The translations under genes were made by a program, and so were the position numbers. A stretch of 64,000 nucleotides of DNA from assembly GCA_964016885.1 (NCBI GenBank), contig OZ024740.1, positions 358,360,001 through 358,424,000 of the forward strand, read 5' to 3'. Under the pieces are notes generated by a model, which was not told where the DNA came from, made no database searches, and saw nothing but the letters and a program-made list of their open reading frames with translations. Of this stretch, positions 11,620 through 50,467 are shown piece by piece. This DNA comes from Eledone cirrhosa. Its lineage: Eukaryota. Each line of letters starts with the position of its first letter. Position 1 is the first letter of the stretch.

Positions 11620-12356
11620 TTTGAAGATGCTCTCCTCTGGTCTTTACTTTGGTGGCATGTTTTAGTTTCTTCATCGTGGGCAATCATTAATGACCTCCCA
11701 TCTCTGGATGTCCAGATCTCTTGACTTCACATCTTTCCTGCAGATGTCTTTGAAATGAAGATGAGGTCATCTTTGTGCTTGTGGCCAGTTCCCCATACAG
11801 TCAGTTTTGGGATATGATGTATGTGACTAAGCCAGCGCTGTTGGAGCAGGGTGAATATGTTGGGTATTTTTTTGCAGTTCAGGACTGGTTAACTGGTCGG
11901 TCCACTTGGTATCCAAAATGCGTCTCAGGCTACGAAGGTGGAAGACATTGAGACGCCGCTCCTGTCTGGAGTACAGGCTCCATGTCTTGCTGCTGTAAAG
12001 TTATGTGCTGAGTACACACTCTCTGTAGACAGCAATTTTGGTGTTTGTTGTCTGTTCTCCCAGACTCTATCAGCCTGGAAAATGTGGAGGTTGCTCTTCT
12101 AACTCTCCTGCATATTTTGGGGTCGAAGGAGATGTTGTCAGTGATGATAGAGGTGAGATAGATTAATTTGTGGACTACTTCCAGCTCGTAGTTCTTGATG
12201 GTTATGGTACAGGGTGCTTGACACCTTGGCGCAATACATTGGTTTTTTTTCGGATTGGTCAGGCTGAATTCCTGGCTGGCCCTCGAGAGTTCATCCATGA
12301 GATGCTGTATTTGCCCCTCAAAGTGTGCTGCCAATGAGATTGCAACATTGTCACCC
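11620..12356 (-). mobile_element. RTE-clade LINE RT remnant
   Basis: ...ELEVVHKLIYLTSIITDN...RRVRRATSTFSRL, a frameshifted RT thumb region. Confidence 0.7.
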
Positions 12357-12409
12357 TCTATAATATTGTATATCCATACAATATATACACACTGTACAGT
12401 GAACAAGGT

Positions 12410-13122
12410 AAACAGTAAAAAATATTGTAAACATATACAGTAGAGAAAAAAACTTTTGGCACAAGAGACAGCTCGTAGTATAGGAGAACGGTTAAATGAA
12501 CACTGGCGAGAGCTTCAAGATAAAAAAGAATCATCTGTACTCCACCAACATGCTAAAATAGAACATGAAGGCAAATTAGAGAACATAGAAATAAAAATAG
12601 AATCTACATACAGAAAAGATGCAATGTTTAGACAAATCCCAGAGGCAATAAACATAAATGAACTCCAACCAATATTAAATAGAAAACGATGAATGGAATA
12701 GCAACATCACAACTTACAATTAAGGACAAAATGAAAACACACACACATAGAACAAACAACCAACCAGTAACATGTAAATAAACAAATAAAAATACACACA
12801 GACACCCGGATGTAACATACAAAAACAAGATGGCGTAGGACAGAACAAATGAGAGGCACAAAACAAAGAAAAGAATCCCCAGTCACTGAAGAGGTCACAG
12901 AATGTGTGACGAAAGAACTTTGACAATATATGAACAACCGCCCCGTTGGGGAACCAACCAACCAACCGGAAATTTATAAATTCTTAAATTTATAATAAAT
13001 TGGAGTGAAACAACTGGTGCGTGTGTTTCTTATTGGCAACATGACCCTCCCAAAGTATAACAATATCGGTTTCAACACACGTTTTCAGATAAAGAATCTT
13101 GCTAAACAAATTCAGAAACGAA
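12410..13122 (+). mobile_element. Penelope-like element 3' end: GIY-YIG endonuclease remnant, UTR with hammerhead, ending in (TA)n
   Basis: ORF 12456-12692 (QETARSIGERLNEH...SSVLHQH...RQIPEAINI...LNRK) fits the PLE GIY-YIG C-terminus. Its tail CATGACCCTCCCAAAGTATAACAAT recurs near 42190-42235 (-) and 61021-61052. Confidence 0.75.
12882..12924 (+). ncRNA. Minimal type I hammerhead ribozyme (PLE-associated)
   Basis: GUCA-CUGAAGA-g-GUCACA(gaaug)UGUGAC-GAAA-G(aa)C-UU/UGAC. Stems I and II pair; stem III is minimal. Confidence 0.7.
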
Positions 13123-13146
13123 ATATATATATATATATATATATAA

Positions 13147-13339: not shown

Positions 13340-13816
13340 ACTTACACACACACATACGAGCGAGATACGGTCTCCCGACCATTCCCGCATCATATGGAAC
13401 AAAACCGTCTAACCCATGCTAGCGTGGAAGATGGACTTTAAACGATGATGATGATATATATATAGTAGTCATGGGACACAGTTATTAGTTATGCAATAAA
13501 TATATTTTGTACTCAGTGTCATTATAATCCAAGATACCTGCATTTGAAATGTGTTCTATCACGTTTATAGAATATTAAATATCAAATGATACATATATAA
13601 TTAAGTTAAAGTGTACATCTACATATGTATACGGAAGTATTAGTATGCATATAAATACACACATGTATACATATGTACATGTACTCAGCTTTTCACTAGA
13701 CACTTTACAGTGAGTGTCAGCTAGTCTGTATGTAACCACACAGGCGGACCGGGTTTTAGAGTCATACGAGTTTTCAAGGAAACACATTTCCTCTATTCTC
13801 CAGAGGGCCAGACAGG

Positions 13817-13861
13817 AATATTGGACTAGTTTCGATGTTATTACATCTCATCAGCAATATT
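13817..13861 (-). ncRNA. Type I hammerhead ribozyme, array copy 1 (further minus copies at 14286-14330, 14755-14799, 15224-15268, 15693-15737)
   Basis: Minus strand reads AAUAUUG-CUGAUGA-GAUGU(aaua)ACAUC-GAAA-C(ua)G-UC/CAAUAUU. Stem I extends over 13795-13889. Confidence 0.92.
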
Positions 13862-16414
13862 TACCCATCTTCCGGCTTCTCTGGAGAATTGTAAAAGCAC
13901 ATATCGTTATATGCTTTCTCTATGAAAATTAGTAGTGGGTAGACTAATTTGCATAGAACGTGAGTCATTGTACGCACCGGTTCAGCGGAAACGATAAAAA
14001 CAAATAACGAAACGAAATTAAATCTCGTTTCGCTTCTAACTCACTTTTGTATGACTGACGCTTAAACAATTAAGTTAAAGTGTACATCTACATATGTATA
14101 CGGAAGTAATAGTATGCATATAAATACACACATGTATACATATGTACATGTACTCAGCTTTTCACTAGACACTTTACAGTGAGTGTCAGCTAGTCTGTAT
14201 GTAACCACACAGGCGGACCGGGTTTTAGAGTCATACGAGTTTTCAAGGAAACACATTTCCTCTATTCTCCAGAGGGCCAGACAGGAATGTTGGACTAGTT
14301 TCGATGTTATTACATCTCATCAGCAATATTTACCCATCTTCCGGCTTCTCTGGAGAATTGTAAAAGCACATATCGTTATATGCTTTCTCTATGAAAATTA
14401 GTAGTGGGTAGACTAATTTGCATAGAACGTGAGTCATTGTACGCACCGGTTCAGCGGAAACGATAAAAACAAATAACGAAACGAAATTAAATCTCGTTTC
14501 GCTTCTAACTCACTTTTGTATGACTGACGCTTAAACAATTAAGTTAAAGTGTACATCTACATATGTATACGGAAGTATTAGTATGCATATAAATACACAC
14601 ATGTATACATATGTACATGTACTCAGCTTTTCACTAGACACTTTACAGTGAGTGTCAGCTAGTCTGTATGTAACCACACAGGCGGACCGGGTTTTAGAGT
14701 CATACGAGTTTTCAAGGAAACACATTTCCTCTATTCTCCAGAGGGCCAGACAGGAATATTGGACTAGTTTCGATGTTATTACATCTCATCAGCAATATTT
14801 ACCCATCTTCCGGCTTCTCTGGAGAATTGTAAAAGCACATATCGTTATATGCTTTCTCTATGAAAATTAGTAGTGGGTAGACTAATTTGCATAGAACGTG
14901 AGTCATTGTACGCACCGGTTCAGCGGAAACGATAAAAACAAATAACGAAACGAAATTAAATCTCGTTTCGCTTCTAACTCACTTTTGTATGACTGACGCT
15001 TAAACAATTAAGTTAAAGTGTACATCTACATATGTATACGGAAGTATTAGTATGCATATAAATACACACATGTATACATATGTACATGTACTCAGCTTTT
15101 CACTAGACACTTTACAGTGAGTGTCAGCTAGTCTGTATGTAACCACACAGGCGGACCGGGTTTTAGAGTCATACGAGTTTTCAAGGAAACACATTTCCTC
15201 TATTCTCCAGAGGGCCAGACAGGAATATTGGACTAGTTTCGATGTTATTACATCTCATCAACAATATTTACCCATCTTCCGGCTTCTCTGGAGAATTGTA
15301 AAAGCACATATCGTTATATGCTTTCGCTATGAAAATTAGTAGTGGGTAGACTAATTTGCATGGAACGTGAGTCATTGTACGCACCGGTTCAGCGGAAACG
15401 ATAAAAACAAATAACGAAACGAAATTAAATCTCGTTTCGCTTCTAACTCACTTTTGTATGACTGACGCTTAAACAATTAAGTTAAAGTGTACATCTACAT
15501 ATGTATACGGAAGTAATAGTATGCATATAAATACACACATGTATACATATGTACATGTACTCAGCTTTTCACTAGACACTTTACAGTGAGTGTCAGCTAG
15601 TCTGTATGTAACCACACAGGCGGACCGGGTTTTAGAGTCATACGAGTTTTCAAGGAAACACATTTCCTCTATTCTCCAGAGGGCCAGACAGGAATGTTGG
15701 ACTAGTTTCGATGTTATTACATCTCATCAGCAATATTTACCCATCTTCCGGCTTCTCTGGAGAATTGTAAAAGCACATATCGTTATATGCTTTCTCTATG
15801 AAAATTAGTAGTGGGTAGACTAATTTGCATAGAACGTGAGTCATTGTACGCACCGGTTCAGCGGAAACGATAAAAACAAATAACGAAACGAAATTAAATC
15901 TCGTTTCGCTTCTAACTCACTTTTGTATGACTGACGCTTAAACAATTAAGTTAAAGTGTACATCTACATATGTATACGGAGTCCAATATTCCTGTCTGGC
16001 CCTCTGGAGAATAGAGGAAATGTGTTTCCTTGAAAACTCGTATGACTCTAAAACCCGGTCCGCCTGTGTGGTTACATACAGACTAGCTGACACTCACTGT
16101 AAAGTGTCTAGTGAAAAGCTGAGTACATGTACATATGTATACATGTGTGTATTTATATGCATACTAATACTTCCGTATACATATGTAGATGTACACTTTA
16201 ACTTAATTGTTTAAGCGTCAGTCATACAAAAGTGAGTTAGAAGCGAAACGAGATTTAATTTCGTTTCGTTATTTGTTTTTATCGTTTCCGCTGAACCGGT
16301 GCGTACAATGACTCACGTTCTATGCAAATTAGTCTACCCACTACTAATTTTCATAGAGAAAGCATATAACGATATGTGCTTTTACAATTCTCCAGAGAAG
16401 CCGGAAGATGGGTA

Positions 16415-16459
16415 AATATTGCTGATGAGATGTAATAACATCGAAACTAGTCCAACATT
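16415..16459 (+). ncRNA. Type I hammerhead ribozyme, plus-strand array copy (also 16884-16928 and 17352-17396)
   Basis: AATATTG CTGATGA GATGT aata ACATC GAAA CTAG TC CAACATT; predicted cleavage after 16452. Confidence 0.9.
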
Positions 16460-17868
16460 CCTGTCTGGCCCTCTGGAGAATAGAGGAAATGTGTTTCCTT
16501 GAAAACTCGTATGACTCTAAAACCCGGTCCGCCTGTGTGGTTACATACAGACTAGCTGACATTCACTGTAAAGTGTCTAGTGAAAAGCTGAGTACATGTA
16601 CATATGTATACATGTGTGTATTTATATGCATACTAATACTTCCGTATACATATGTAGATGTACACTTTAACTTAATTGTTTAAGCGTCAGTCATACAAAA
16701 GTGAGTTAGAAGCGAAACGAGATTTAATTTCGTTTCGTTATTTGTTTTTATCGTTTCCGCTGAACCGGTGCATACAATGACTCACGTTCTATGCAAATTA
16801 GTCTACCCACTACTAATTTTCATAGAGAAAGCATATAACGATATGTGCTTTTACAATTCTCCAGAGAAGCCGGAAGATGGGTAAATATTGCTGATGAGAT
16901 GTAATAACATCGAAACTAGTCCAACATTCCTGTCTGGCCCTCTGGAGAATAGAGGAAATGTGTTTCCTTGAAAACTCGTATGACTCTAAAACCCGGTCCG
17001 CCTGTGTGGTTACATACAGACTAGCTGACACTCACTGTAAAGTGTCTATGAAAAGCTGAGTACATGTACATATGTATACATGTGTGTATTTATATGCATA
17101 CTAATACTTCCGTATACATATGTAGATGTACACTTTAACTTAATTGTTTAAGCGTCAGTCATACAAAAGTGAGTTAGAAGCGAAACGAGATTTAATTTCG
17201 TTTCGTTATTTGTTTTTATCGTTTCCGCTGAACCGGTGCGTACAATGACTCACGTTCTATGCAAATTAGTCTACCCACTACTAATTTTCATAGAGAAAGC
17301 ATATAACGATATGTGCTTTTACAATTCTCCAGAGAAGCCGGAAGATGGGTAAATATTGCTGATGAGATGTAATAACATCGAAACTAGTCCAACATTCCTG
17401 TCTGGCCCTCTGGAGAATAGAGGAAATGTGTTTCCTTGAAAACTCGTATGACTCTAAAACCCGGTCCGCCTGTGTGGTTACATACAGACTAGCTGACACT
17501 CACTGTAAAGTGTCTAGTGAAAAGCTGAGTACATGTACATATGTATACATGTGTGTATTTATATGCATACTAATACTTCCGTATACATATGTAGATGTAC
17601 ACTTTAACTTAATTGTTTAAGCGTCAGTCATACAAAAGTGAGTTAGAAGCGAAACGAGATTTAATTTCGTCTCGTTATTTGTTTTTGATACATATATAAA
17701 TATAGTAAAATAAAATATATATAATATTTATTTATACATAGTATATATTATACTATGAAAATACGATAAAATAAAGTACCAGTAATGTAGTGGTTAATTG
17801 CTGGCCTTGTGCCTAAAGTAGAAACAATTATATTATTTATTATATATAAATTAACGATTTTATTTATT

Positions 17869-18518
17869 ATATACTAGCTGAGGTACCCAGCTTCACCCGG
17901 GAGAACAGGTAAGAGAAGACGGATAAAAGAGAAAACGACTGTATTAGATGTGTTGTCTGGTATGAGGTGAGACCGTAATGTGTGTGTGAGAGACAAAAAC
18001 AATCATAAAACTTCCTTATTAGGCTGGGGGGAGTAAACTGCCGATTAAATAGAATCATTAGCCTTGGATTTTAAATGTGAAATAACCATAGTCAGTATGA
18101 TCTTTTTCAACTCCAAAGGACGTCATCTGAAATGCAGCAATATACTGCATAACATTGCTTCTGAAGTGTTTTGCTTCGTCTGTAAGTAGTATATGGATAA
18201 AAGCTGGAGGGTAGATTAATTTCAAATAGTGTCAATTTTTCTTTGTTCTGTAAAATCAAAGACTGCAAAACGACTTCATAAAAGCTAACGCAATATTGTT
18301 AAACCTTCAACTGATACTTTGATCTATAGTTTAAGCCGATTCTAGACTTTTGTGGGACCTCACTCTCTCTGAATATCTAACACTTTAATTGTATCTCTCT
18401 CTGTATAACGGCCTATATCTTTCTTTCTGCCTCTCTCTCTTTAGATGTGTGTGTGTATGTATTTGTGTGTGCATGTAAACCAACCAATAAACATCTCTTT
18501 TTTATATTATATATAGAT
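17869..18518 (+). mobile_element. Non-autonomous Helentron/DINE-1-like rolling-circle element
   Basis: Starts ATACTAGCTGAGGTACCCAGCTTCACCCGGG, has a subterminal microsatellite, ends TTTATATTATATATAGAT in a T-rich site; no TSD seen. Confidence 0.5.
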
Positions 18519-25977: not shown

Positions 25978-26560
25978 CACATTTATACACGTGTGTATAT
26001 ATGTGTATGATGTGTATGTATTAATGTTTGTTCTCTTCAGAGAGAAATAATACATTTTAAAGCTTCTGAACAATAATGGTTTATTAATGGTTTGAAATGA
26101 GATGAAATAGCGATTGATTCTCACATATTATGTACGATATATTTGATATATCTTAACACACCCGCCTACTAAACCCACATTTCTTTCTTTAATCTATTTC
26201 AGGTTGGTTTCACATAAACACTTACACATATACACACACATATACACACATACATATTTACACACATACATACATACATACATACATACATACATACATA
26301 CATACATACATACATACATACATACATACATACATCCATCCATCCATACATACACGAAAGGCTGAAAACTCTGCTAAGAGTTTTGCAATCGCTTGTCAGA
26401 TTATAGAGTTTGGTGCACTTTTAGGCTACGGTCAGCCACACGAACCTGTAGCATATCCCGAACAAGTAATACTTCTGCTTTGAAGGTTTTTTAAGTGGGG
26501 AAAGGCTATACATACATACATACATACATACATACATACATACATACATACATACATACA

Positions 26561-27620
26561 TGGTGGCTGCCAACTCGTTTTCGAGTACGGCCACTACTTT
26601 ATATCCATGTAGGAGAACCCCTACCGATGCGCTAAACAAGTGTGACTTTTTAGTCCAGCCAGCGACTTGAAAACTCTGGTACAAACACTACACCTGTGAC
26701 AATTATTGACACATAGTGCTAGACCCATGGTACGATGTGACGACAAGTGCAGAGAGATCTCCAGATATAAAGCAATGCCTGTGCCGTGAAGCTTTTATAG
26801 TGAGCAAAGGCACTGCACAAAGCCAGTCCCACACTCTTAACCAAGATGATATTTAACAAAAAGAAGAACAAGTCAACATCATTGGATACCATCAGGGTTG
26901 CAGGTGTTATATCAGAGCTTTCCTTCTCCTAGAATTCTGCCTTGACAAAGGCTAAGGGGTCATCTCTCTCGGATACATATATACATACATACATACATAT
27001 ATATATATATACATGGTGGCTGCCAACTCGTTTTCGAGTACGGCCAGCACTTTATATCCATGTAGGAGAACCCCTACCGATGCGCTGAATGAGTGTGACG
27101 TTTTAGTCCAGCCAGCGACTTGAAAACTCTGGTACAAACACTACACTTGTGACAATCATTGACACAGTGCTAGGCCCATGGTACCATGTGACGACAGGTG
27201 CAGAGAGATCTCCAGATATAAAGCAATGCCTGTGCCGTGAAGCTTTTATAGTGAGCAAAGGTACTGCACAAATCCAGTCCCACTCTCTTAACCAAGATGA
27301 TATTTACCAAAAAGAAGAACAAGTCAACATCATTGGATACCATCAGGGTTGCAGGTGTTATATCAGAGTTTTCCTTCTCCTAGAATTCTGCCTTGACAAA
27401 GGCTAAGGGGTCATCTCTCCCGGTGATTTTGGATGGTCATTGACGCTTAAGAGCTCCTTTGCCCTTTGACAGGTTTTGTTTTTAGTCCTGCAGGATGTCC
27501 AAAGTCACCCTCCTCGCCAAGAAACCTTGGTGGGGTTGCCAGTTTAGTCGCCAACGACCCGACCATGAGACAGGTTGTACTGGGATACATGTTACCAGTA
27601 GCACCAACTGGTGACCTGAC
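26561..27620 (-). repeat. Local 453-bp-offset duplication of an interspersed repeat resembling an RTE 5' region, between (TACA)n tracts
   Basis: 26561-26968 is nearly identical to 27014-27419; related segments lie at 28340-28480 and 28920-29465. Confidence 0.7.
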
Positions 27621-29499: not shown

Positions 29500-30954
29500 T
29501 GCGTGCCTCAATCTGTTCCTGCAAGACCATTGTGCCATCAACAACATTATAACACCTGAGTATACTGGGGAAAAGAAGGAAGTGTGGGGCTGTATAGAAC
29601 AGCTACTAATTAACAAAATGATCCAGAAAAGATTAAAGGATTGCTGGAACTTGACTGTAGTTTGGCTAGACCGCCAGGCGACCTGGGTGGATTATCAAAG
29701 CTTTACAACTAGCCAAAATCACACAACTATAGCCGCTTTAGAACGTCTGACCAAGACTTCGTACAACACTTTGCTCCCTAGGGATGATAAGGATAAAAGT
29801 GAACCTGATAGCATACACTACCGAAAAGGCATCTTTCAATGTCATAGCTTGTAAGTGCTGCTCTTCTTCCTCTCATATCTGCTCACAAAACAGTGGCCAT
29901 AGAAATGGACCAAGAATTATTTCGCATCTTTTCTTTGTCGATTGCATGAAATTGTATCGACCACATAAAAGAAACGCAATTGAACCGCATTATTTAATTT
30001 TCTACAGATATTGCATTGAAATATGATGAGTCCAAAAGTACATTTTTGACAACAAAAGTTGAAAAAGTTGTGCCCACCTTTGAAGACCTAAACATGAACG
30101 GTTTGACGATACAAACTCTCTAGTCAGGTTACAAATATAGGTAACTTGGACAGAATTAGAATGTCAGATATATGGGGAGGACCAGGAATGAGTACATCAG
30201 TAAAGCGAATATGGTCATCAGAACTCTCAGCATATAAGCATATTACCCACAATATTTTGCTGCACCCTTCCTAAGGCCAACATTTGGCCTGCTAAATAGG
30301 TCATTGCAAGGACTGAGCGAAATGGATGTAAGGACTCGCAAGCTGCTCAGTGTTACTGGAATCTTTACCATCAATGGTGATACGGATAGAATATATTTGT
30401 CAGGCAAGGAGTTCGTCGGAGACTAAATCTATATTAACATCATACGAGACTCGGATGGGCATGACAATTATAATTATTTCCGATTTAGGCACAAGGCCAC
30501 TGATCGAGGGGAGACACATGAAATAAAATTTGACACCATCTCTCTCTCAGGAACATTGGTAGACTCTATTCAATGATCGAACAAAATAAAAAAAAATGAA
30601 CCAATTCACTGAAAAGGTTCTACATGGAAACTTGAGTCGAAAAACACAGACCATCAAGCGGAAAAAACCATGGAGTTCCGATAAGTTCATAATATCCCAC
30701 CTTGAAGCATCCCACAAACAAAATATCTCCACTAAATACCTACTGCACAAAAGAAGAAAATATTCAGTTGAAAATAAAAGGTGGCTGTACAAAACGATGA
30801 GGGAAGACGTTAATCACATTATTGTTAATTGTGAAAGAATATCTTCTCGTTACTACCTCCCAATGAGGCATGACATGTTAGCTAGAACGATCTGGAATGC
30901 ATTACGGAAGACTAAAATAAAAACTGAAAATCAAATCAAATATCTGAATGTACA

Positions 30955-30955
<1 letters not shown>
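29500..30955 (+). mobile_element. Decayed R4/Dong-clade non-LTR retrotransposon
   Basis: GCIEQLLINK, YRKGIFQ, SHLFFVD.MKLY and EDVNHIIVNC...RHD motifs across frameshifts. Confidence 0.7.
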
Positions 30956-31007
<52 letters not shown>

Positions 31008-31008
<1 letters not shown>

Positions 31009-31390
31009 TAATAAAAGGAATTCCAACTTTGTCTGATTTACTCGTTTTATTTACAATCCTTTAAAATTTATAATGGTATTAGAATGAAATAGTATGGTAG
31101 AATATTAAATGTTAAGTCTTAATTGAACAAGTACTTTCATGCTTTCGCAATCTTCAGGTTCATATTGTGTGGTGTCAGTCAAGTTTGCAATTTTCAACTG
31201 TCGAAAATTGAAAACTTGACTGTCACCACACAGTATGAACCTGACGATTGCGAAAGCATGAAAGTACTTGTTCAATTAAGACTTAACATTTAATATTCTA
31301 CCATACTATTTCATTCTAATACCATTATAAATTTTAAAGGATTGTAAATAAAACGAGTAAATCAGACAAAGTTGGAATTCTTTTTATTAA
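31008..31390. repeat. Near-perfect foldback of about 190-bp arms from a PLE 3' end, with a hammerhead in each arm
   Basis: 31008-31196 is the reverse complement of about 31203-31390. Confidence 0.9.
31236..31274 (+). ncRNA. Minimal hammerhead ribozyme (minus copy at 31124-31162)
   Basis: UGAAC-CUGACGA-uUGC(GAAA)GCAu-GAAA-G(ua)C-UU/GUUCA. Confidence 0.75.
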
Positions 31391-32177: not shown

Positions 32178-33720
32178 GTTCTTTGAGTCTCAGTCATTGA
32201 TGTTAGTTAACTGGAAAGTTTGTTGAAATGAATATCAAGCCACTACCTGCAGCCTCAGATATTCAGGACGTATCGGAGGGTTCTTGCTGTTCCCAGCAAG
32301 CATGCCTTTTGAAGTGTTCCAAAAAGCGGGGCGGGGCCAATTTTCTTTAACCATCCCTGGAAACTCTTTAAGATAGTACCTAGTGTGCCTATGACAATCG
32401 GGACCACTTTGACTTTATGGCAGTTCCAAATCCTTTTTACCTCCCACTTTAAGTCCTGGTATCGGTTAATTTTCTCCCTCTCCTTCTCTTGTACTCTCGT
32501 GTCGAATGGGCAGGCCACATCCACAATCAGACACGATCTTTTTTCCTTGTCCCAAACCACCAGGTCAGGTCTATTGTGTTCCAGTTTCTTGTCAGTCTGT
32601 ATCCTAAAATCCCACAGCACCTTCACCTGATCGTTTTCTATCACCGACTCTGGCTTATGTTCATACCACTTCTCAGAATGTGGTAAATTGTTTACTTTGC
32701 ATAGGTGCCATCACATCATGTCTCCAGCCTTTATATTGAGTCTGGGCTAGGTGTTTACACTCGGATACAATGTGAGCCACAGTCTCCTCTCTCTCTCCAC
32801 AGATCCAGCACAGTGGGCTAGCCTCCTCTTTGTAAATACGGTGTTTCAGCCACTTCGTTTTGAGGGCCTGCTCTTGCGCAGCCATTAGCATTCCTTCTGT
32901 AGCCTTTTTATGGTCTCCTTTTTTCAACCAGTTCCATGTCTGTGGATCTCTGAATTCAGTTTTCTCAAAGAAGGTACTATAAAGGGATTTTTCATGAAGG
33001 CTGCTCTTTCTCCTTCTTATTTCCTCCTTGGAAATCCCCTAGTCTATTGTCCTCTCCTTCAGTACAATTCTGAGCATTGGCTCCTTACTATCAGTCACGT
33101 ATTTGTGTAGGTTGTTTTTCTCCATCTGAACACAGTCCTCTATGCTGATAAGACCTCTTACACCTTCAGATCTCCTTAAGCAGAGTCTATTGACATCACT
33201 CCTCTTGTGGAACATGTTGTAGATAGTCAATAGCTTCCTAGTCTTCCTATCCATTTCTTTTTGTTCAGCAACATTCCATCTCAGAATTCCCGCACTGTAC
33301 CTAATAATAGACACAGCTCGGAAATTTACTGCACTTATGGCATTCCTACTGTTCAGATGTGACTTTAATACGCTCCTTATTCTCCGAATGTATTCAGATC
33401 TTATCAATTCCTTCATTTTTTTGTTCTGGATGTCATCAGCCTCCAGAGCACCCAAATACTTGTATCCTTCTTCAGTGTCAATTTCCTTTATCATCTCACC
33501 TTTTGGTACCTGGATTCTGTTGCTTCTGCTCAATTTACCCCTCTTCATCACAAGGACTCCACACTTACTAATACCAAATTGCATACATATATCATTGCTG
33601 AAAATATGGACAGTGTCAACAAGCACATCCAACTCCTTCTCACTCTTCCCGAAGAGCTTAAGATCGTCCATGCAGAGGAGGTGATTGCCAACGTTCACAC
33701 AGAAAGATGAATTTGTCACC
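32137..33720 (-). mobile_element. 5'-truncated R4/Dong-clade non-LTR retrotransposon (RT, CCHC finger, restriction-like endonuclease) with a (TAA)n tail
   Basis: HLLCMDDLKLF, YKYLG, CWICGEREETVAHIVSEC and NRPDLVVWDK...IVDVACPFD...KINRYQDL. Split into three frames; ends in (AAT)n at 32137-32177. Confidence 0.9.
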
Positions 33721-34157
33721 TCGTGCGCCGCTAGTCAAACGTGGTAAGCGTGTATTGAATAGAAATAACAGTCCAACACACACAACTTAATAAGCTCAAC
33801 TTGTGAGGGAGCAGAAATATATATGAAAATTAGAGTTAAAACTCAATTGGAACCCTGTAACTATTAAGCTCAAAGTATAAATACTGAGCCGATATATATA
33901 GTAAGAAACACAGTAAACCGTGTGTCTAAAATTACAAGGGTTGAAAAACCACATTTGTTTGAAATATTTAACCAAGAAGCAGACAGAATGATAAAATATA
34001 CAAACCGCCTCAATAACCATTATATCTCTCGGACAGATTATCCCTATATATATATATATATATATGTATGTAAATGGTAAACAGAAATAACAACACAATC
34101 GGTACAGTATATGGAAGGTATATATTATGTTAACGCTTGATAAAGCAGGAAGAGGGC

Positions 34158-42140: not shown

Positions 42141-42608
42141 ATTATATATATATATATATATTTGTTTTGCGAGTTTTTTTAATATGAAATCGTGTGTCGA
42201 AACAAATATTGTTATACTTGGGGAGGGTCATATTGTTGTAATAATATTGCCAGAAATAATAACAGAACACATTCACTGTTTGGTTGGTTTTCGCTTCTGT
42301 ATCTTTTATATCTCCACAGTTAATTCATTTGGTCCTCAATGTTTATCATTGACTGACCAACGGTCAAAAATACAGATATAATATAGATATAAACACATAT
42401 ATATAGTCTAACAAAGTTCTTTCGTTGCACATCTTCAATATCATCAGTGGTACTCCTGTTGTATGTCTACTCTATTTATTGTATGTCTACGCTTTTCTAA
42501 AATAGCGTAGACATACAATACAACCGCTCTGTATAATCAGTTCCTGATTATTACTGGAATTCTATAAGAATCCAACATTTATAATTTTCAACAGACAAAG
42601 GTGAATGC

Positions 42609-42656
42609 TAAGCTCTGATGAATACCAACAGTATGAAACAGAGATCTGTCAGCTTA
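42609..42656 (+). ncRNA. Canonical type I hammerhead ribozyme with a long stem III
   Basis: UAAGCU-CUGAUGA-AUAC(caaca)GUAU-GAAA-CAGA(ga)UCUG-UC/AGCUUA; distal stem I ACAGACAAAGG (42591) pairs with CCUUUGUUUGU (42661). Confidence 0.88.
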
Positions 42657-43909
42657 TCTCCCTTTGTTTGTTTAAAAAAGAAGTAAGTGACATAGTCAGT
42701 ACTTTAAAACAATAGCGTAAGGTCTTCAAAATGTTTTTAATTAAGCATACAGTATATTGCCAAATATACTATATATACATTCATATATACATCGCTATTT
42801 CAGAGCACTCATTCTAATATATATATATATTTATATATATCCTGTGCATCCCTTATTTTGAATATATATTCTAAAGTCTTTGTTTTGAAACTATCATGTA
42901 TATATATATATATGCTTCCCTTCATGTCGATATAAGTACCAGTCAAGTACTGGGTTAGGGTTAGTGTTATCTCTTTCTCACTTCCTTTCTTTCCCTCTCT
43001 ATCCTTCTCTGGAAATAAATTTGCTGTATTCAAACCTGGAGAGGAGATGGACTCTACCAGGTTAAACGATGCTCTTGAAAAGTATATCAATATGGCATCC
43101 CTACGTCACTCTAAAAAGTTACGGATCCATACATACATATGCATATATTAATATACAGAGACACACTCACATAGAAGTAGAGTGAAAGATAAGATATTAG
43201 TCAAGTAAGACCATTATCCAACCAGGTAACTGGGTACTTGATACTTTAAAAAGGTAGATTATTCATTAACTATTAGTCATTATTCATTACTCATTACTCA
43301 TTAATCATTATCTATTAATTTGTTAAAAGGTTCAGTCTAAATAAAACGAGTAGAAGTGTTTTAATCCGATATGCGTTAGATTTGGCTTAACCAGAGAGAC
43401 GCCAAAAAGTAATCCCCACGCTCCATTATTCTGTATTATATGATATAATACTTAGCTACATATATCATATCGCATAATGTAAATGCTTTGCAATAAATCA
43501 CAACGTATTATCAGCATCTTTCTTTCATAAAACAACAATAACTACAACAATCACCACAACCAGCACCTCCACCAGTTATGCTTCATTTTATTGTGCATAT
43601 GATTGCCTGTTGATTATCTGATGTAGGAAAACTTGATTGTTAGATAGCTGATTTTATATTTCAATATATTACGAGCTCTGTGGAGTAATGATTATGGTTG
43701 CTAGATTGTTAAGTGTATCACCTGATTTCGACCAACAGTTTAATCATTCATTTCATTCCAATTCTCTTGCTTCCTTTACAGTTTTGATAAATACAAGAAC
43801 AATGTGCCACCAAATACTCCTCCAAGTCTATAGAGTTTCCCTAAGAATCCAATAGTTAATGACAATTAAGTATGTTTTTGAAACAGCGAGTGAGTTTGAA
43901 ATTAGAAAT

Positions 43910-50396: not shown

Positions 50397-50467
50397 TGAC
50401 GTACATGGGAGTCGAACCCACATCTTTGGTTAGCGCGACCACTGTGCTACCATTACACCAACTCATC
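50397..50467 (-). pseudogene. tRNA-like cloverleaf (pseudo-tRNA or SINE head) inside a rearranged repeat
   Basis: A box TGGTGTAATGG, anticodon arm TGGT(CGCGCTA)ACCA, T arm GTGGG(TTCGACT)CCCAT, weak acceptor stem, and a T5 run about 12 nt downstream. Confidence 0.55.

What the first reader, a model, noticed from the sequence alone, without database searches (positions are those of the whole stretch)
13587..17699. The whole inverted array is flanked by a 14-bp target-site duplication, pointing to one retrotransposition event with twin priming
Seen: TGATACATATATAA lies at 13587-13600 and again at 17686-17699, overlapping the array ends by 1-2 nt. The left 2.4 kb is antisense and the right 1.7 kb is sense to the ribozyme strand. 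Known: a TSD plus a 5' inversion is the signature of target-primed reverse transcription with twin priming. Inference: the multimer was inserted en bloc from RNA, with both target strands priming cDNA, rather than growing in place by unequal crossover. The TA-rich target fits the preference shown by the neighbouring PLE ends.
Basis: partly seen in the sequence, partly recalled or inferred. Interest (0 to 1): 0.85.

Follow-up and report, generated by a model that had tools for sequence, protein, structure and literature searches.

The report
Ribozyme array inserted by two-sided priming
A small self-cleaving RNA was copied into this animal chromosome as a ready-made multi-copy array, with both cut DNA strands starting the copy at two fixed places on the RNA, as Penelope-like transposons do, which shows how such ribozyme repeats spread.

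Summary
The 14-bp duplication is a true TSD: the array sits in an older dispersed repeat whose uninterrupted copies carry the site once. The array is a 469-nt hammerhead retrozyme with two head-to-head arms, and this is the family's usual form. Of 63 loci, 44 have two arms, all head-to-head. In 37 of the 44, one arm ends at unit position 300-303 (site A) and the other at 228-235 (site B); one pair is A/A and none is B/B. Inner ends fall at random. Arms of one locus share rare variants (12 of 26 loci, 0.7 expected) and differ no more between arms than within them. So 'one event, both strands primed, multimer born at insertion' is supported. 'L1-type twin priming' is not: there is no poly(A), both priming sites are fixed, and breakpoints are not adjacent. 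The pattern is the Penelope-like 'inverted copy plus tail' signature. I found no report of it for a retrozyme, nor of the one-of-each rule. Still open: the partner enzyme, circular versus linear template, and read support.

The parts
13587..13600 (+). Left copy of the 14-bp target-site duplication; its last 2 nt overlap the left arm (priming microhomology at site B)
   Evidence: single copy in paralogous empty sites
17686..17699 (+). Right copy of the 14-bp target-site duplication; its first nt overlaps the right arm (site A)
13599..15980 (-). Arm B: 5.1 copies of the 469-nt retrozyme unit; RNA 3' end at unit position 229 (site B) next to the left TSD; 5'-truncated at position 193
15980..17686 (+). 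Arm A: 3.6 copies; 5'-truncated at unit position 1; RNA 3' end at position 301 (site A) next to the right TSD
15980..15980 (.). Head-to-head junction, one shared base, not palindromic (unit positions 193 and 1)
17620..17686 (+). 'Tail': the ~70 nt between site B and site A, present at the end of arm A only; holds a predicted 13-bp hairpin (about 17647-17675)
   Evidence: fold is a prediction
16415..16459 (+). Type I hammerhead with a palindromic, dimer-type helix III; predicted cleavage after 16452; further copies at 16884-16928 and 17352-17396
   Evidence: motif scan; dimer-type architecture as described in PMC4209133; activity not tested
13817..15737 (-). Five hammerhead copies in arm B (13817-13861, 14286-14330, 14755-14799, 15224-15268, 15693-15737); the copy at 15224-15268 has a substitution at the first core base (15261)
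13567..13600 (+). Left part of the older dispersed repeat that served as target
17686..17876 (+). Right part of the same host repeat (continues the left part in uninterrupted copies)
12331..13124 (+). Neighbouring Penelope-like 3' fragment (context, not part of the insertion); start approximate. Its family also ends at two fixed sites about 60 nt apart (13066 and 13124)
   Evidence: the GIY-YIG-like C-terminus is read by eye (recalled); Pfam gave no hit

Best explanation
The array is one insertion of a non-autonomous hammerhead retrozyme, made in trans by the RT-endonuclease of a Penelope-like element (PLE). (1) The endonuclease cuts both strands of TA-rich DNA with a stagger of about 11-14 nt, leaving 3' overhangs (TSD shown; enzyme inferred). 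(2) Each 3' end pairs over 1-5 nt with a U-rich site of the sense RNA. One end uses site A (unit 300-303) and the other site B (228-235), on either side of a hairpin (fixed sites and one-of-each pairing shown; pairing inferred from overlaps and target-derived letters). (3) Each cDNA runs through as many units as the RT manages, on a circular or uncleaved multimeric RNA from one source, and stops at a random place (random inner ends and shared source shown; template form not settled). (4) The two truncated ends are joined with 0-4 nt microhomology or a short insert, and the gaps are filled (junctions shown; repair route inferred). The product is TSD, arm B inverted, junction, arm A with tail, TSD. 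If the second priming fails, a one-arm copy results.
For: Empty paralogous sites here and at L090, which also has a 14-bp TSD. 44 of 44 two-arm loci are head-to-head: 37 A+B, 1 A+A, 0 B+B, 6 with one odd end. All 19 one-arm loci end at A (11) or B (8). In a sample by position on C1, 23 A/B head-to-head pairs lie within 10 kb among 100 A ends and 33 B ends; the only A/A pair is two separate insertions. 12 more A+B loci, nearly all of an 85-90% subfamily. Inner ends are uniform round the unit (Rayleigh p 0.63, n=72). Junction microhomology is 1-4 nt in 14 of 29, blunt in 4. Target letters replace element letters at the ends. Cross-arm sharing of rare variants: 12 of 26 loci against 0.72 in permutations, maximum 6 of 5000. 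Unit divergence is 0.57% within arms, 0.55% across arms and 0.88% between loci; L042 has no difference over 4.5 kb. A sister 430-nt retrozyme family ends at the homologous two sites, and so does the neighbouring PLE family at two sites of its own. In vitro, a PLE cuts and extends both strands and starts at two adjacent internal RNA sites that define the tail (PMC11167929). An inverted copy, a one-sided tail and a TSD are typical of PLEs (PMC3846280; PMC8557442).
Against: No autonomous PLE sharing the tail or ribozyme was found: 20 A-end loci were all retrozyme, and neither a young Neptune-like family nor the neighbouring family matches the unit. In vitro, the PLE showed no strand difference in start site and no primer-RNA homology; here the sites pair one-of-each and show short homology. 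The tail is about 70 nt, against 30-40 nt in published PLEs. There are two same-site pairs (L077 A/A with a 41-nt arm, L181 B/B/B) and six pairs with an odd end. Only 5 of 36 A+B loci have a TSD with internal breaks of the TA run; the rest sit in (TA)n, where TSD length cannot be read. In the window the unit variants are not in register between the arms (position 8: A 1110, B 01001), so one RNA copied twice from the same hairpin does not fit this locus without later conversion. There is no expression evidence and no read evidence.
Confidence: 0.8

Rival explanations
1. L1-type twin priming on one linear multimeric RNA by a LINE enzyme: the first strand primes at the RNA 3' end, and the second strand primes at a chance internal homology just ahead of the first RT.
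For: TSD of 14 bp, inverted plus direct segment, short microhomologies. In a multimer, site B could lie several units upstream of site A, which would allow the different unit haplotypes of the two arms in the window. LINE-like ORFs are common in the fetched loci.
Against: No poly(A). The second site is fixed, not variable. Site A is not the ribozyme cleavage end (position 5). Breakpoint adjacency is at chance level: 2-3 of 36, against 46% for L1. The two-arm form is 70% of loci against about 20%. The same two-site form occurs in a PLE family of this genome.
Confidence: 0.07
2. Short arms were inserted, and the tandem copies grew in place later by unequal crossover or slippage.
For: 11 of 38 multi-unit loci have variants shared by some but not all units, including near-period-2 blocks in L053 and L085. 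L046 and L053 are more alike within the long arm than across arms. L054/L055 has a duplicated inner junction. The 2026 preprint favours local amplification.
Against: Within-arm and cross-arm divergence are equal over 23 loci (Wilcoxon p 0.27). L042 is 4.5 kb with no differences. In the window a private variant (8C) is polymorphic in both arms. Both arms exceed one unit in 18 of 35 loci.
Confidence: 0.06
3. Fold-back or self-priming on an antisense template makes the inverted structure (the proposal for bdelloid Penelope palindromes), or two independent insertions hit the same TA site.
For: Three junctions are near-palindromic (L041, L068; L177). Self-priming was proposed for head-to-head PLE repeats (PMC3846280). 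TA runs attract repeated insertions (L065/L080).
Against: 34 of 36 junctions are more than 20 nt from palindromic. Independent insertions would not give head-to-head orientation every time, one-of-each end sites, shared rare variants or a single TSD.
Confidence: 0.05
4. Assembly or fold-back-read artefact.
For: Long inverted repeats are hard to assemble. No reads could be laid on this locus.
Against: The junction is not a mirror point, the flanks are not inverted, the TSD restores a known host repeat, and the same geometry with different inner breakpoints recurs at dozens of loci.
Confidence: 0.02

Closest known systems
Metazoan non-LTR retrozymes (Cervera and de la Pena 2020, PMC7229834; Li et al. 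2026, 10.64898/2026.07.22.740005)
   Same: Non-coding tandem units with one type I hammerhead each, low GC, no LTR, dispersed arrays, TSD longer than 4 bp, proposed mobilisation by PLEs from circular RNA.
   Different: The unit (469 nt) is slightly above the 150-450 bp range quoted. In the parts I read, neither paper describes head-to-head arms, fixed end sites or a tail. The preprint has no hit for 'head-to-head', 'tail' or 'target site' and discusses growth by local amplification.
Penelope-like element insertions: inverted 5'-truncated copy, one-sided tail, TSD (PMC3846280, PMC8557442); PAc in vitro (PMC11167929)
   Same: Head-to-head arms, tail at one end only, AT-rich or (TA)n targets, TSD of similar order (8-10 bp in rotifer), both strands extended, two internal start sites, dimer-type hammerhead.
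   Different: No ORF. Tail about 70 nt rather than 30-40. Both arms are multi-copy arrays. Near-strict one-of-each use of the two sites and 1-5 nt primer homology, neither seen in the in vitro study.
L1 twin priming (Ostertag and Kazazian 2001, seen only as cited in PMC12016303)
   Same: Both target strands prime cDNA; TSD about 13-14 bp; inverted plus direct segment joined by end-joining.
   Different: L1 uses poly(A) plus a variable internal site, with adjacent breakpoints in 46% and inversions in about 20% of insertions. None of these holds here.
Non-autonomous Chlamys elements such as MRC1 (PMC8557442, passage)
   Same: Non-autonomous PLE derivatives that form multicopy head-to-tail insertions.
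   Different: They resemble the 3' ends of known autonomous partners, and that clade lacks canonical hammerheads. No partner was found here.

Membership tests
Non-LTR retrozyme | Tandem non-coding units of a few hundred nt, each with a type I hammerhead | tested here: met
   469-nt unit; 8 hammerhead copies in the window, 7 with an intact core. The only ORF of 120 aa or more over family copies arises where the unit runs into TA repeats
Non-LTR retrozyme | Dispersed in many copies, no LTR/PBS/PPT, TSD longer than 4 bp when present | tested here: met
   2359 A-end and 686 B-end junctions with TA genome-wide; 14-bp TSDs. PBS/PPT were not searched for explicitly
Non-LTR retrozyme | Expressed, self-cleaving, forms circular RNA | not testable with these tools
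   No RNA holder listed. The monomer folds far better than shuffles (z -9.6), which is not evidence of expression
PLE-type insertion product | Inverted 5'-truncated copy head-to-head with the direct copy | tested here: met
   44 of 44 two-arm loci; 14 of 14 more
PLE-type insertion product | Tail present at one end only, between two fixed RT start sites | tested here: met
   Sites 228-235 and 300-303 (one end at 308) account for 101 of 107 arm ends; longer than published tails
PLE-type insertion product | AT-rich or (TA)n target with TSD | tested here: met
PLE-type insertion product | An autonomous PLE in the genome sharing the cis-acting end sequence | tested here: inconclusive
   PLE-like ORFs are abundant and one family is young (98-99%, RT domain), but no shared tail was found in the two families and 20 A-end loci examined
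Autonomous Penelope-like element | RT plus GIY-YIG ORF | tested here: not met
   No coding frame in the array
L1 twin-priming product | Poly(A)-primed non-inverted segment | tested here: not met
   No A tail at any of the ends printed
L1 twin-priming product | Variable internal second priming site, often adjacent to the end of the first cDNA | tested here: not met
   Fixed site; adjacency 2-3 of 36, chance 3.1
L1 twin-priming product | TSD around the whole unit, both strands priming | tested here: met

The most novel reading that the evidence does not exclude
A PLE RT dimer works as an asymmetric two-headed integrase. One active site always starts at site A and the other at site B of the same bound hairpin, and on circular ribozyme RNAs both heads run by rolling-circle, strand-displacing synthesis. 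Hammerhead 'satellites' would then be written into chromosomes in one step as inverted multimers, and these arrays would be a direct record of rolling-circle reverse transcription of an animal circular RNA.
Probability: 0.35. Interest if true: 0.8.

Novelty: new variant of a known kind. Interest (0 to 1): 0.62.

Why it matters
How animal retrozymes move, and how PLEs make their inverted-plus-tail insertions, are both stated as open in the papers read. This family ties the two together with insertion anatomy rather than co-occurrence or sequence kinship. It shows that tandem ribozyme arrays are mostly born multimeric. It also gives a rule that any PLE mechanism must explain: the two cut strands use different, fixed RNA sites. 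A 469-nt non-coding RNA with two mapped start sites and thousands of natural insertions is a compact test substrate. Such loci are also kilobase-long perfect inverted repeats, a likely source of dsRNA and assembly errors.

Tried and rejected
Reads: none could be laid, so there is no read-level check of the junctions and no orthologous empty allele. No RNA holder was listed, which is no evidence either way. Rfam gave no hammerhead hit. Partner search: the retrozyme tail matched only retrozyme copies. A Neptune-like family that hosts two insertions in its 3' microsatellite (L045, L171) shows no similarity to the unit and no convincing hammerhead in 1.5 kb upstream. The neighbouring PLE family shares the TA target, the two-site form and a few letters at its ends, but has no alignable tail. 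Idea that the inner junction marks the ribozyme cut: the window's right arm starts 4 nt from it, but only 2 of 72 inner ends lie within 10 nt of it (3.2 by chance), so rejected. Idea that both heads copy one RNA in register: of four informative loci, two fit (L040, L050) and two do not (L049, window), so unresolved. Single monomer circle as the only template: not sufficient for 11 of 38 multi-unit loci unless later conversion is allowed. A source array for the window's private variants was not found (only one other unit with the same letter). Rows left out: L079 (no match); L089 (duplicate of L088) in the 36-locus statistics; L054/L055 merged; stray hits to other families in L031, L065 and L084. 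Variant tests used only arms of at least 96% identity, without L039 and L054/L055. The junction table also omits L047 and L049. Earlier scan findings: none returned.
Full report
OBSERVATION. The 14-mer is at 13587-13600 and 17686-17699 and nowhere else in the window at up to one mismatch. It does not extend further. Between the copies lie two tandem arrays of a 469-nt unit, more than 99% identical and inverted to each other. I number the unit as window 16449-16917. The left arm (13599-15980, minus strand) runs from position 229 at the TSD to 193 at the junction; the right arm (15980-17686) runs from 1 to 301. Each unit holds a type I hammerhead motif with a palindromic helix III, the kind described as needing a second copy to cleave (PMC4209133, passages). 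Rfam does not report it. Both RNA 3' ends point outward to the TSD, so the arms are head-to-head.

THE TSD IS REAL. A search with the left flank hit many places over its last 33 nt: the target is a copy of an older dispersed repeat. In 10 of the 12 places fetched, the left-flank sequence continues into the right-flank sequence over a single TA-rich site. L122 carries exactly one 14-mer, and the others differ in TA count or by small indels. A second locus, L090, has a different 14-bp duplication, and two diverged paralogues (L114, L116) carry its site once. These are paralogous, not orthologous, empty sites. In (TA)n targets the length cannot be read: only 5 of 36 A+B loci have a duplication with internal breaks. 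The longest possible duplication is 8-14 nt at 17 of the 36.

THE FAMILY. The window lies in a 3.0-Gb animal genome. Its repeats look cephalopod-like to me; that is a recalled impression, not tested. I fetched loci from three DNA searches that scored 38 of 559, 33 of 33 and 40 of 956 candidates (fetched) and mapped the arms. Of 63 loci, 44 have two arms and all 44 are head-to-head. The 3' ends cluster at 300-303 (site A) and 228-235 (site B), 101 of 107 ends. Pair types are 37 A+B (one a segmental duplicate), 1 A+A, 0 B+B and 6 with one odd end. One-arm loci are 11 A and 8 B. If each strand chose a site independently at even odds, at most 1 same-site pair in 37 has probability about 3e-10 (hand arithmetic). 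The first search favours long arrays, so I added a sample by position. Exact patterns found 2359 A-end and 686 B-end junctions with TA genome-wide (controls 1 and 1); the B pattern misses subfamily variants. Over the first 111 Mb of C1, 100 A ends and 33 B ends form 23 head-to-head A/B pairs. The one A/A pair is two separate insertions, and one B/B locus appears among the first 100 B ends. Of 20 further loci chosen by their A end, 12 are A+B, 7 one-arm and 1 runs out of the stretch. The B/B locus L181 has three B ends with the same flank and looks like a later duplication. A related 430-nt family ends mostly at the homologous positions 280 and about 224, with head-to-head A+B pairs in several loci; other ends occur in its older copies. 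A shared ribozyme pattern occurs 16,324 times (control 0).

INNER ENDS AND JUNCTIONS. The 72 inner ends of 36 A+B loci are uniform round the unit (Rayleigh p 0.63). They do not cluster at the ribozyme cut (2 of 72 within 10 nt, 3.2 expected) or at the other priming site (2-3 of 36 within 20 nt, 3.1 expected). Arm lengths are similar (medians 667 and 733 nt) and uncorrelated. Of 29 junctions, 14 share 1-4 nt, 4 are blunt and 11 show extra letters, some of them due to nearby substitutions. At the outer ends, element and target overlap by 1-5 nt, and target letters often replace an element letter (11 site-B ends and 5 site-A ends). That is what a primer paired with a mismatch would leave. The stretch between B and A folds into a 13-bp hairpin.

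ONE SOURCE, BORN MULTIMERIC. Rare variants are shared by both arms in 12 of 26 loci, against a mean of 0.72 and a maximum of 6 in 5000 permutations. In the window, 273G and 379G are in every unit of both arms. Units differ by 0.57% within arms, 0.55% across arms (23 loci, p 0.27) and 0.88% between loci. L042 has no difference in 4.5 kb. Growth of each arm from its own seed would make within-arm distances smaller; that is seen only in the two longest arms (L046, L053). A duplicated inner junction at L054/L055 also shows that later change happens. The template form is open. Fixed private variants suit a cloned circle. But 11 of 38 multi-unit loci, including the window (8C in 5 of 9 units, in both arms, out of register), need a mixed template or later conversion.

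MECHANISM. Staggered cuts in TA-rich DNA free two 3' ends. One primes at A and one at B. Both cDNAs run through several units and stop at random, and end-joining links them. Shown: TSD, fixed sites, pairing rule, random inner ends, shared source. Inferred: the enzyme, base-paired priming, the repair step, circle versus multimer, one RNA versus two.

COMPARISON. PMC11167929 (parts 1-2 of 4; supplements not read, and its Fig. S2 bears on tail ends) shows a PLE protein cutting and extending both strands and starting at two internal sites that bound the genomic tail. It reports no strand difference and no primer homology. PMC3846280 (passages) and PMC8557442 (passages) describe the inverted copy, a 30-40-bp one-sided tail, TSDs and (TA)n bias of PLEs, and call the mechanism undefined. 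The PLE-like neighbour at about 12331-13124 belongs to a family with the same two-site, head-to-head form. PMC7229834 (passages and Discussion; Supplementary Fig. S9 not seen) proposes that PLEs copy retrozyme circles into tandem cDNA. The preprint 10.64898/2026.07.22.740005 (parts 1 and 3 of 5 and a term search; supplements closed) links retrozymes to PLE pLTRs, discusses local amplification and leaves the mechanism open. PMC12016303 (passages and section 8) gives the L1 figures used. PMC13282606 (term search) does not mention ribozymes or retrozymes. Six literature searches turned up no report of head-to-head retrozyme arrays with fixed paired end sites. The library lacks most subscription papers, so older Penelope work may hold part of this.

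AGAINST AND MISSING. No partner PLE was identified. Two same-site pairs and six odd-ended pairs exist. No read, expression or cleavage data were obtained. Samples are not random draws of the whole genome.

VERDICT. A real feature and a typical member of its family rather than a one-off. It works like a PLE insertion, meets the sequence tests for a non-LTR retrozyme, and fails the tests for L1 twin priming. New variant of a known kind; interest 0.62.

Noticed in passing
L131-L156, L031:5936-6408, L061:6622-7520, L084:4471-5918: A second, more abundant retrozyme family (about 430 nt), alignable to this one, with homologous end sites (280 and about 224) and head-to-head pairs.
   Followed up: partly
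window 12331-13124; L095-L106: Penelope-like family with a hammerhead-like motif near 12886 (read by eye) and two fixed ends about 60 nt apart, both followed by TA runs at insertions. Candidate partner; tail not alignable.
   Followed up: partly
L171:552-2891, L045, L069, L182-L189: Young (98-99%) Neptune-like PLE family with a long open RT frame; retrozyme arrays sit in its 3' microsatellite in L045 and L171.
   Followed up: partly
L054/L055 (C4:303493607-303507961): Four-arm array of about 14 kb in which the same inner junction occurs twice and a fold-back lies at the tail hairpin: later duplication or mis-assembly.
   Followed up: no
L181:469-2185: Three site-B ends, each followed by the same flank; an exception to the pairing rule.
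   Followed up: partly
L056:3354-6509: A 1.08-kb inverted duplication of a PLE 5' region (99.4%) with a one-arm retrozyme between the arms.
   Followed up: no
window 15987, 15227, 14758, 13820 versus the other units: Unit position 8 varies within the array; the C form is private to this locus and puts a mismatch in ribozyme helix I, which could lower cleavage.
   Followed up: partly
L088, L089: Two identical insertions about 18 kb apart, a segmental or assembly duplication.
   Followed up: no
window 42607-42660: Another hammerhead-like motif on the + strand, 165 nt before a TA run.
   Followed up: no
window 50397-50467: tRNA-like Rfam match on the - strand, 36.6 bits; possibly a SINE head.
   Followed up: no
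window 26520-27423: Two-copy 451-bp tandem repeat, 94% identity.
   Followed up: no
window 32255-33734 and 30590-31036: Broken LINE-like RT/endonuclease frames (family assignment by eye).
   Followed up: no
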